From: a virus
Length of the DNA: 64,000 bases
Virus record (IMG/VR): IMGVR_UViG_3300032224_000679
Span: 21,487 to 85,486 of that record
Strand: one strand, 5' to 3'
A program made the translations under genes and the position numbers. The notes under the pieces are model-generated. The model made no database searches. It was not told the DNA's origin and saw nothing but the letters and a program-made list of their open reading frames with translations. Below are positions 61,610-61,722 of the stretch, one piece after another (within the stretch, counting starts at the first letter, position 1; each line of letters begins with the position of its first letter).

Positions 61610-61722
61610 AGGATACTAACAGCAATGTCTAACGACACGTTGGTTCGATTCCAACATTTGCCTTAGGGCAGATTCGCTCAGCGGTAGAGCAATGGGCTCC
61701 AAGCCCATCGAAAATGTATCCT
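61610..61722 (+). ncRNA. CAGCAA-stem RNA 2 carrying a circularly permuted tRNA-Trp(CCA)-like body
   Basis: aggatac/gtatcct stem; arms in the order T-arm, loop-closed acceptor stem, D-arm, anticodon arm ATGGG-CTCCAAG-CCCAT. Confidence 0.75.

What the first reader, a model, noticed from the sequence alone, without database searches (positions are those of the whole stretch)
61610..61722. Circularly permuted tRNA-Trp(CCA)-like RNA with a loop-closed acceptor stem
Seen, 5' to 3': small hairpin tgtc-taac-gaca, T-arm gttgg-TTCGATT-ccaac, 7-bp acceptor atttgcc/ggcagat closed by TTAG, 2-nt linker, D-arm gctc-AGCGGTA-gagc, 1 nt, anticodon arm atggg-CTCCAAG-cccat. The spacings match a tRNA opened at the variable region. 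Known: permuted tRNA genes occur in some algae and an archaeon and mature by splicing; YrlA has a T-closed acceptor-D order but no separate anticodon arm. No canonical tRNA-Trp lies in this window. Inference: either an unchargeable full-shape mimic, or a precursor whose acceptor loop is opened to give a two-piece tRNA.
Basis: partly seen in the sequence, partly recalled or inferred. Interest (0 to 1): 0.85.

Follow-up and report, generated by a model that had tools for sequence, protein, structure and literature searches.

The report
Phage Y-RNA-like full tRNA mimic
This 113-base gene in a giant freshwater phage's tRNA cluster encodes a small RNA shaped like a complete tRNA with its amino-acid end sealed by a loop; it most likely partners a phage Ro60-like protein rather than working in translation.

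Summary
Window 61610-61722 folds into a 7-bp outer stem enclosing a small hairpin, T arm, 7-bp loop-closed acceptor stem, D arm and anticodon arm (CUCCAAG). Rotated in silico, it scores as tRNA-Trp(CCA).

It is not a lone oddity or a replacement tRNA. It is one of five RNAs in this tRNA island that share a handle: a 7-bp stem, 3 nt, then CAGCAA. I found 27 distinct homologues with the same layout in other phage contigs. Compensatory changes occur in 16 of 31 pairs, and the U8:A14 tertiary pair also covaries.

The anticodon-arm loop varies widely and is only 5-6 nt in 14 of the 27. Complete relatives also carry a normal tRNA-Trp. Decoding is therefore not the conserved role.

Handle RNAs co-occur with a DUF2828 gene: 46 of 61 mostly fragmentary records, and 13 of 13 that are at least 44% complete. 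Its model has the Ro60 fold. A mycobacteriophage YrlA-like RNA beside a "Ro-like" gene carries the same handle.

Best reading: a YrlA-type Y-RNA variant, a four-arm tRNA mimic with the Ro handle in the variable-arm position. RNase P nicking of the acceptor loop is possible but untested.

This scan has noted the handle family before on other DNA. This four-arm layout had not been noted.

The parts
61610..61616 (+). Handle, 5' strand (AGGAUAC); pairs with 61716-61722
   Evidence: MFE fold. Handle pairs are 100% paired in 27 distinct homologues, 3 of 7 with compensatory changes. The same handle occurs in 91 of 98 matches to the 16-mer in IMG/VR.
61617..61625 (+). 3-nt spacer (UAA) plus invariant CAGCAA motif
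   Evidence: CAGCAA is invariant in alignments A1 and A2. It is shared by five elements in the window and by handle RNAs beside Ro-like genes in a mycobacteriophage and a Felix O1-like phage.
61626..61637 (+). Small hairpin (UGUC-UAAC-GACA), in the position of a long variable arm
   Evidence: All 3 modelled pairs show compensatory changes. After rotation ARAGORN reads it as a long variable arm.
61638..61655 (+). C48 equivalent plus T arm (GUUGG-UUCGAUU-CCAAC)
   Evidence: The T loop is UUCGAUU in 24 of 27 and UUCGAAU in 3 of 27. The stem does not vary.
61656..61673 (+). 7-bp acceptor stem (AUUUGCC/GGCAGAU) closed by a UUAG loop
   Evidence: Six of 7 pairs show compensatory changes. Length is always 7 bp and loops are 4-6 nt.
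61674..61691 (+). U8-C9 linker, D arm (GCUC-AGCGGUA-GAGC), A26
   Evidence: The 8:14 pair is U:A in 23 and A:U in 4 of 27 distinct sequences, never mixed.
61692..61708 (+). Anticodon arm (AUGGG-CUCCAAG-CCCAU), CCA in the anticodon position
   Evidence: Four of 5 stem pairs are compensatory. Across the family the loop is hypervariable and 5-7 nt long.
61709..61722 (+). A-rich linker (CGAAAAU) plus handle 3' strand (GUAUCCU)
61048..61104 (+). Sister handle RNA; cargo is one anticodon-arm-like hairpin with loop CUGUUAA (as in tRNA-Asn GUU)
   Evidence: Weak R1 hit.
61739..61854 (+). Sister handle RNA (AGGUUCG stem) carrying a hairpin, T arm, weak closed acceptor and D arm
   Evidence: AGGTTCN subfamily in L012, L023, L036, L053, L076. 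R1 hit of 30.2 bits.
63267..63486 (+). Long handle RNA (UUGUAAG ... CUUACAA, then CAGCAA) with a roughly 200-nt structured cargo
   Evidence: The same stem recurs 12 times in related loci.
63585..63639 (+). Sister handle RNA (AGGAUGC stem); cargo hairpin has loop CUUUUAA (as in tRNA-Lys UUU)
60697..60725 (+). Nearest strong sigma-70-like promoter upstream (11 of 12 matches); no convincing terminator before the element
   Evidence: This is a consensus match only.

Best explanation
The gene encodes a Y-RNA-like small RNA of the YrlA type, made by a T4-like jumbo freshwater phage. It is transcribed within the polycistronic tRNA island and probably released by the same enzymes that trim the flanking tRNAs (inferred). 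Its ends pair into a conserved handle: a 7-bp stem, 3 nt, then CAGCAA. That handle is most likely the binding site for the phage's Ro60-like protein (DUF2828/DUF7788). In relatives this gene sits at the downstream end of the island; here it would lie beyond the contig end (inferred). The cargo is a complete tRNA body with T arm, 7-bp acceptor, D arm, anticodon arm and all core tertiary residues. Its acceptor end is sealed by a 4-nt loop, and the handle emerges where a class II tRNA has its long variable arm. It therefore cannot be charged as transcribed. I propose that it acts as an L-shaped bait or adapter that brings tRNA-recognising factors to the Ro60-like ring, or keeps them away from real tRNAs. 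Candidate factors are host tRNA-targeting nucleases, RNA repair enzymes and exoribonucleases. What is shown: the structure, its covariation, family membership, genomic linkage to the Ro60-fold gene, and non-conservation of the anticodon. What is inferred: protein binding, processing and the biological role.
For: Fold and statistics: (97.8% of cells paired against 33-39% when partners are slid; 16 of 31 pairs compensatory; 0 of 500 shuffles reach the covariation score). tRNA shape: (ARAGORN calls Trp(cca) after rotation; 0 of 300 controls). Tertiary 8:14 covariation. Partial Rfam YrlA hit over T arm, acceptor and D arm. Family. Linkage to DUF2828: 29 of 33 and 17 of 28 records, and 13 of 13 that are at least 44% complete and hold a genuine handle RNA. 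The gene is on the same strand and downstream, as close as 333 nt. By contrast only 705 of 50,697 phage records hold a homologue. The one complete genome without the gene (G018) had only a chance 16-mer match with no closing stem. Ro60 fold: the AF2 model (pLDDT 79) has Ro60 structures as its top 13 PDB hits, with E down to 4e-9 and best TM 0.55-0.58. Bridge to published YrlA: in Mycobacterium phage CicholasNage the 'Ro-like RNA binding protein' gene is followed by three handle RNAs, and the middle one is the Rfam YrlA-like hit. A Felix O1-like phage shows the same arrangement. Not a translation tRNA.
Against: No DUF2828 or TROVE gene lies in this contig, because the contig ends inside the island; linkage is inferred from relatives. 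The Rfam YrlA score is far below gathering (23.5 against 69 bits). The handle motif CAGCAA differs from the published YrlA motif GNCGAAN0-1G. No binding, expression or end-mapping data exist. The only RNA-library evidence is one 283-nt metatranscriptome contig, 91% identical over 61634-61714, which could derive from DNA carry-over. The biological role (decoy, adapter or repair) is untested.
Confidence: 0.75

Rival explanations
1. The RNA is a Y-RNA-like molecule that is further matured. RNase P cuts the UUAG loop 5' of G61667, the new 3' end is trimmed and CCA-tailed, and a two-piece RNA results, held together by the acceptor stem and the handle. This mirrors M. smegmatis YrlA. It concerns maturation only and is compatible with the best explanation.
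For: M. smegmatis YrlA, the one studied YrlA with a 7-bp acceptor, is cleaved by RNase P in vitro and carries CCA in vivo (PMC4201824). In the family here the acceptor is always exactly 7 bp. The first base of the 5' strand is G in 26 of 27 distinct sequences, and the last loop base is U in most. These are features of RNase P substrates, by established knowledge.
Against: No end-mapping data exist; the runs were available only as contigs. The loop is 4-6 nt and holds no RCCA. S. Typhimurium YrlA and D. radiodurans Yrn1 are not cleaved.
Confidence: 0.3
2. The gene is a circularly permuted tRNA-Trp gene whose product is processed into a chargeable, decoding tRNA, either two-piece or religated. 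It would supply Trp decoding that the phage otherwise lacks.
For: The rotated sequence scores as tRNA-Trp(cca) with a canonical CUCCAAG loop. No tRNA-Trp is found in the window.
Against: Fourteen of 27 distinct homologues have 5- or 6-nt loops, and the 'anticodon' changes identity between close relatives. G049, G041 and G054 each carry a canonical tRNA-Trp(cca) alongside their copy. The window's island is truncated. The junction is a perfect 7-bp helix with no bulge-helix-bulge, and bacteria have no tRNA-splicing endonuclease of that type. The would-be discriminator is U, whereas bacterial tRNA-Trp uses G73 (my own knowledge). No RtcB gene lies in the contig.
Confidence: 0.04
3. The handle RNAs work independently of the Ro60-like protein. 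They could be processing or punctuation signals for the tRNA precursor, free-standing decoys, or a mobile RNA cassette that happens to share phages with DUF2828.
For: The elements sit in spacers between tRNAs, 5-10 nt from tRNA ends. Islands are mosaic and cargo is modular. Four fragmentary records with elements lack the gene.
Against: Co-occurrence holds across phages of Actinobacteria, Enterobacteria and freshwater hosts that have unrelated islands. In the mycobacteriophage there is no tRNA island at all, yet three handle RNAs directly follow the Ro-like gene. The outer handle bases AGGAU/AUCCU and CAGCAA are conserved in sequence, more than a helix alone would require.
Confidence: 0.12
4. 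The element is non-functional debris: halves of decayed tRNA genes juxtaposed by recombination in a fast-evolving tRNA cluster.
For: tRNA islands are recombination-prone and contain pseudo-tRNAs, for example a 'Pseudo (tRNA-Tyr)' in UAB_Phi87.
Against: Twenty-seven distinct homologues keep the same six-helix layout. Compensatory changes occur in 16 pairs, 97.8% of cells are paired, and the tRNA core residues are invariant.
Confidence: 0.02

Closest known systems
YrlA (Rfam RF02553), the bacterial and phage Y RNA bound by Rsr/Ro60 (Chen et al. 2014, PMC4201824)
   Same: The terminal stem is formed by the 5' and 3' ends. The tRNA-like module has the order T arm, loop-closed acceptor, D arm. It is linked to a Ro60-fold gene. 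The 7-bp acceptor matches the M. smegmatis form that RNase P cleaves. A mycobacteriophage YrlA-like RNA carries the same stem-3 nt-CAGCAA handle.
   Different: YrlA has no separate anticodon arm; its Ro-binding stem continues from the anticodon-stem position. Here a closed anticodon arm is present, and the handle plus a small hairpin sit in the variable-region position, giving a six-helix junction. The Rfam score is 23.5 bits against a gathering score of 69. The conserved motif is CAGCAA, not GNCGAAN0-1G. The partner is a DUF2828/DUF7788 protein that does not match Pfam TROVE by sequence (on the contig; on P0001).
Sister handle RNAs of the same phages, 'class B' (for example L018, L027, and UAB_Phi87 at L216:9391-9516)
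   Same: They share the handle, T arm, 7-bp closed acceptor and D arm, and are linked to the same DUF2828 gene.
   Different: In class B the anticodon arm precedes the T arm, so the tRNA is opened between the D and anticodon arms. In the finding it is opened in the variable region.
Thermus phage phiLo Ro60 with Yrl1/Yrl2 (PMC12135203); Bas63 gp130 Ro60-like anti-Ppl protein (PMC11482910)
   Same: A phage-encoded Ro60-fold protein has small RNAs encoded next to it. The phiLo structures 9KOP and 9L5Y are the best structural matches to the DUF2828 model. The Bas63 paper guessed that some 'tRNA genes' beside gp130 are Y RNAs.
   Different: Yrl1 and Yrl2 are stem-bulge-stem RNAs with a CGAA motif and are not described as tRNA mimics. 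The Bas63 work identified no RNA.
Circularly permuted tRNA genes of Cyanidioschyzon merolae, some green algae and Thermofilum pendens
   Same: The gene order is 3' half then 5' half, with a short linker between the acceptor strands. Rotation restores a scoring tRNA.
   Different: Those genes mature through a bulge-helix-bulge junction, a splicing endonuclease and a ligase into ordinary decoding tRNAs (my own knowledge). Here the junction is a plain 7-bp helix with a conserved protein-handle motif, the anticodon loop is not conserved, and canonical isoacceptors coexist.

Membership tests
YrlA / bacterial Y RNA (RF02553) | Reaches the Rfam gathering score | tested here: not met
   23.5 bits against 69, local match to model positions 30-81 only.
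YrlA / bacterial Y RNA (RF02553) | tRNA-like module in the order T arm, loop-closed acceptor, D arm | tested here: met
   The order is conserved in 27 homologues.
YrlA / bacterial Y RNA (RF02553) | The 5' and 3' ends pair into the Ro-binding stem carrying the conserved motif (GNCGAAN0-1G in published YrlA) | tested here: inconclusive
   A terminal 7-bp stem is present, but the adjacent motif is CAGCAA. A mycobacteriophage RNA that Rfam matches weakly to YrlA (39.8 bits, below gathering) has the same CAGCAA handle.
YrlA / bacterial Y RNA (RF02553) | Encoded next to a Ro60 orthologue | tested here: inconclusive
   No TROVE or DUF2828 gene lies in the contig, which ends inside the island. Relatives have a Ro60-fold DUF2828 gene downstream on the same strand: 46 of 61 records, and 13 of 13 that are at least 44% complete.
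YrlA / bacterial Y RNA (RF02553) | Bound by the Ro60 protein in vivo | not testable with these tools
   Needs RIP or EMSA.
Phage 'CAGCAA-handle' RNA family (named in this scan; not in Rfam) | A 7-bp closing stem, 3 nt, then CNGCAA, with an A-rich 3' linker and a U-rich 3' flank | tested here: met
Permuted tRNA genes (algal/archaeal type) | Bulge-helix-bulge at the junction of the precursor ends, cut by a splicing endonuclease | tested here: not met
   The junction is an uninterrupted 7-8 bp helix. No RtcB gene lies in the contig.
Permuted tRNA genes (algal/archaeal type) | The product is a decoding tRNA, so orthologues keep a 7-nt anticodon loop and the anticodon identity | tested here: not met
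   Loops are 7, 6 and 5 nt in 13, 11 and 3 of 27 distinct sequences, with many different 'anticodons'.
tRNA (RF00005) | Scores as a tRNA in the native order with free acceptor ends | tested here: not met
   ARAGORN and Rfam make no call at this locus. It scores only after in-silico rotation.

The most novel reading that the evidence does not exclude
The phage carries a scaffolded library of tRNA and anticodon-loop look-alikes. One Ro60-like protein holds, through a common handle, a set of RNAs that display either whole tRNA bodies or bare anticodon stem-loops. Their loops evolve fast and copy the loops of tRNAs that host defence nucleases attack. Among 162 distinct short handle RNAs the commonest 7-nt loop is CUUUUAA, the tRNA-Lys(UUU) loop (28 elements). 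Next come loops of the Tyr, Ser, Thr, Cys, Arg and Asn types. The four-arm mimic of this finding would be the full-length decoy of the set. It would titrate or trap anticodon nucleases or other tRNA-targeting immunity, or hand damaged tRNAs to repair enzymes. That would make this an RNA-based anti-defence system.
Probability: 0.25. Interest if true: 0.85.

Novelty: new variant of a known kind. Interest (0 to 1): 0.6.

Why it matters
What the tRNA-like domain of Y RNAs does is still unknown. This is a natural variant in which the mimicry is complete: all four arms, the tertiary core and a 7-bp acceptor. The Ro handle has moved to the one position, the variable arm, that leaves the L-shape intact. 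It also comes as part of a modular set carried by many phages, including cultured Felix O1-like phages and mycobacteriophages, so the question can be tested at the bench. The protein family has already been shown to counter one bacterial defence (Ppl) without a known RNA partner. If the RNAs are its cofactors or decoys, this links Ro60/Y-RNA biology to the phage-host conflict over tRNAs. Practically, these genes are unannotated or sit under spurious small ORFs in phage genomes, and Rfam does not detect them.

Tried and rejected
- A megablast of 61000-62500 against 50,697 phage records found nothing.
- The contig holds no TROVE, RtcB or DUF2828 gene. This is uninformative because the contig is about 24% complete and ends in the island.
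- My first loose handle scanner gave hundreds of chance hits in coding DNA and was tightened.
- The single-sequence AF2 model was unusable at pLDDT 42 and was replaced by one built from a 56-sequence alignment.
- A phmmer search of the DUF2828 protein against PDB sequences found nothing; only the fold search showed the Ro60 relationship.
- All RNA runs were Logan contigs, mostly from relatives or from conserved tRNA parts. They give no ends, strand or expression level, so parts of the island without cover mean nothing.
- No fetched locus is a close enough relative to show what lies beyond the contig end.
- Serratia phage BF has the protein, but no handle RNA with the usual outer bases (AGGAU-type) and no model R1 match lies within 12 kb of it.
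- Searches of the papers library for DUF2828, permuted tRNA with phage, and Y RNA with bacteriophage found no description of the handle family.
- I considered a tRNA with a long insertion spanning 61676-61801 (Rfam 21.6 bits). I rejected it because the flanking acceptor strands do not pair.

Full report
**Setting.** The window is bases 21487-85486 of an 85.5-kb IMG/VR viral contig estimated at 24% complete. Runs that hold the stretch are mostly freshwater or lake metagenomes. A tRNA island begins at 59818 and runs to the contig end. It holds 16 tRNA matches to Rfam (15 also called by ARAGORN), none of them tRNA-Trp. The finding lies between tRNA-Pro (ending at 61604) and a second structured element followed by tRNA-Cys. 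It is about 900 nt downstream of a strong sigma-70-like promoter at 60697, with no convincing terminator in between.

**Observation.** The MFE and centroid structures of 61605-61730 are identical at -41.9 kcal/mol, with z = -4.5 against 200 dinucleotide shuffles. The structure is:
- an outer stem pairing AGGAUAC (61610-61616) with GUAUCCU (61716-61722);
- a small hairpin;
- a T arm;
- a 7-bp acceptor closed by UUAG;
- a D arm;
- an anticodon arm.

The usual tRNA core residues are in register: U8, A14, G15, G18-G19, A21, A26, C48, UUCGAUU and G53-C61. Neither ARAGORN nor Rfam sees a tRNA in the native order. With the handle removed and the sequence rotated to begin anywhere from 61661 to 69, ARAGORN at default thresholds calls an 87-89 nt tRNA-Trp(cca) with a long variable arm. 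None of 300 shuffled controls is called.

**A family, not a singleton.** Rfam at relaxed threshold gives a local YrlA (RF02553) match of 23.5 bits (E = 0.007) over T arm, acceptor and D arm. Notes from earlier stages of this scan pointed to a 'handle' of a 7-bp stem, 3 nt, then CAGCAA. I tested this lead myself.

In the window the handle occurs five times, all inside the island: 61048-61104, 61610-61722, 61739-61854, 63267-63486 and 63585-63639.

The exact 16-mer AGGATACTAACAGCAA occurs 98 times in 90 IMG/VR loci. In 91 of those 98 the complementary GTATCCT follows within 320 nt, which is far beyond chance.

The cargo is modular:
- Short elements carry a single anticodon-arm-like hairpin.
- 'Class B' elements carry anticodon arm, T arm, closed acceptor and D arm.
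- 'Class C' elements have the layout of this finding.

**Class C is conserved and covaries.** A pattern scan and a covariance model (R1) recovered 39 class C copies, 27 of them distinct, at 97-130 bits. Class B scores about 50-81 bits.

On the model-guided alignment:
- 97.8% of cells form standard pairs, against 33-39% when the partners are slid by 1-3 columns.
- 16 of 31 pairs show changes on both sides: acceptor 6 of 7, anticodon stem 4 of 5, small hairpin 3 of 3, handle 3 of 7.
- No shuffle out of 500 reaches the observed covariation score.
- The T and D stems are invariant.

RNAalifold on an independent MAFFT alignment gave the same helices, with 13 compensatory pairs. The tertiary 8:14 pair is U:A in 23 sequences and A:U in 4, never mixed. 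Those four sequences are related, so this may reflect only one or two evolutionary events. This is a genuine structured RNA with a tRNA-like three-dimensional design.

**It is not a decoding tRNA-Trp.** The anticodon-arm loop is the most variable part of the molecule. It is 7 nt in 13, 6 nt in 11 and 5 nt in 3 of the 27 distinct sequences. The 7-nt loops read CCA, UCA, CAU, UAU, UGA, CAA or AAA.

Three large relatives each have 39-41 tRNA matches to the Rfam model, one class C element and eight to ten handle RNAs. They are G049 (383 kb, 100% complete), G041 (300 kb) and G054 (223 kb, with terminal repeats). Each also carries a canonical tRNA-Trp(cca). The absence of tRNA-Trp from the window reflects the truncated contig.

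**The protein partner.** A Pfam DUF2828 search hit 29 of 33 records holding handle RNAs. A protein search hit 17 of 28 records holding class C. Most of these records are fragments of 2-25% completeness. All 13 records that are at least 44% complete and hold a genuine handle RNA have exactly one copy. The one complete genome without the gene had only a chance 16-mer match lacking the closing stem.

Where both lie in one locus, the gene is downstream of the class C RNA on the same strand, as close as 333 nt. In G049 the gene ends the island. Only 705 of 50,697 phage records (1.4%) hold a homologue.

The L088 protein (P0001, 468 aa) matches Pfam DUF7788 and DUF2828, and only weakly the Ro60 vWA domain. 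An AF2 model built from a 56-sequence alignment (pLDDT 79, pTM 0.75) has Ro60 structures as its 13 best PDB matches. These include Thermus phage phiLo Ro60, Xenopus and human Ro60, and D. radiodurans Rsr. The alignments are full-length, with E down to 4e-9 and best TM 0.55-0.58.

**Bridge to published Y RNAs.** P0001 is 34% identical over its full length to mycobacteriophage proteins annotated 'Ro-like RNA binding protein'. In phage CicholasNage that gene is followed at once by three handle RNAs. The middle one is an Rfam YrlA-like hit of 39.8 bits and an R1 hit of 47.9 bits. Chen et al. 2014 reported YrlA RNAs in most phage genomes that they searched (PMC4201824).

Felix O1-like phage UAB_Phi87 has four handle RNAs, one of them a class B tRNA mimic. 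They lie just downstream of its DUF2828 'RNA-binding protein' gene, among the tRNAs. This independently confirms the earlier scan notes.

A 2024 preprint showed that Bas63 gp130, a Ro60-like protein, counters the Ppl defence. Its authors only guessed that neighbouring 'tRNA genes' might be Y RNAs (PMC11482910). I found no description of the handle family in Rfam or in the searched literature.

**Mechanism.**
- *Shown:* the six-helix architecture; family membership; linkage to a Ro60-fold gene; and a non-conserved anticodon.
- *Inferred:* the handle binds the Ro60-like protein. Its outer bases and CAGCAA are conserved in sequence, while the inner pairs covary. The RNA is probably released from the polycistronic precursor by tRNA-processing enzymes, since it lies 5 nt after the CCA end of tRNA-Pro.

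Placing the handle where class II tRNAs carry a long variable arm would leave the L-shape free for tRNA-recognising factors.

RNase P might open the acceptor loop. The family keeps exactly 7 bp, G at position +1 in 26 of 27 distinct sequences, and usually U at -1. M. smegmatis YrlA with a 7-bp acceptor is cut and CCA-tailed in vivo. I could not test this, because only contig-level RNA data were available. They show one metatranscriptome contig, 91% identical, over 61634-61714.

**A lead on function.** Among 162 distinct short handle RNAs, 123 have a stem of at least 4 bp closing a 7-nt loop. The commonest loop is CUUUUAA, as in tRNA-Lys(UUU), in 28 elements. Next come loops of the Tyr, Ser, Thr, Cys, Arg and Asn types in canonical CU-NNN-AA form. 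The window's own short elements show the Asn(GUU) and Lys(UUU) loops. tRNA-Lys(UUU) is a classic target of anticodon nucleases (my own knowledge).

In Serratia phage BF the DUF2828 gene lies near genes annotated as RNA ligase and as CCA-adding enzyme/2',3'-cyclic phosphodiesterase. Both observations fit a role in the conflict over tRNA integrity. Neither proves one. The set of loci was also biased by my search patterns.

**Verdict.** The element is a new structural variant of the YrlA type of Y RNA: a full four-arm tRNA mimic with the handle in the variable-arm position. It belongs to a widespread handle-RNA family that this scan has already met on other phage DNA.

Noticed in passing
window 63267-63486: A 220-nt handle RNA with a GC-rich structured cargo. 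The bin 63300-63443 had the highest or near-highest summed contig depth in three of four RNA libraries (524, 409 and 347). It has no Rfam match at gathering. The same UUGUAAG stem recurs 12 times in related loci.
   Followed up: partly
window 63585-63639 and 61048-61104: Short handle RNAs whose only cargo is a hairpin with a canonical anticodon loop: CUUUUAA (Lys UUU) and CUGUUAA (Asn GUU). The second lies directly after the real tRNA-Asn. Across related loci CUUUUAA is by far the commonest loop (28 of 162 distinct short elements).
   Followed up: partly
window 61739-61854: A second long handle RNA (AGGUUCG stem) with a hairpin, T arm, weak acceptor closed by a UUGGUC-containing loop, and D arm. 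It belongs to a separate conserved subfamily (L012, L023, L036, L053, L076, L212).
   Followed up: partly
window 62754-63313 and 63179-63259: ARAGORN calls a permuted 'tmRNA*' that overlaps tRNA-Tyr and tRNA-Asp; this is probably spurious. Rfam calls a weak 81-nt tRNA (34.8 bits) at 63179-63259 that ARAGORN does not report.
   Followed up: no
window 62100-62760: About 650 nt of the island has no tRNA, no handle and no ORF of 120 aa or more. One RNA library shows contig depth at 62580-62723 (323) and at 62148-62291.
   Followed up: no
L214 3961-4208 (Mycobacterium phage CicholasNage): Three consecutive handle RNAs (54, 122 and 46 nt) lie in the unannotated gap right after the 'Ro-like RNA binding protein' gene. 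The middle one is the YrlA-like tRNA mimic. This phage region has no tRNA island.
   Followed up: partly
L215 (Serratia phage BF, 89477-114988): The DUF2828 homologue BF_0180 sits two genes after an annotated RNA ligase. It is close to genes annotated as a CCA-adding enzyme/2',3'-cyclic phosphodiesterase and a macro-domain (Appr-1-p) protein, forming an RNA-repair-like neighbourhood. No handle RNA with the usual outer bases and no model R1 match lies within 12 kb.
   Followed up: no
alignment A2 (class C homologues): The third pair from the junction end of the acceptor stem (tRNA 5:68) is a G-U wobble or a C/A mismatch in most members: 13 distinct sequences with a mismatch, 9 with U-G. This is a conserved irregularity. 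UUCAU is the commonest acceptor-closing loop, and similar UUCA-type sequences recur in the anticodon-arm loops.
   Followed up: no
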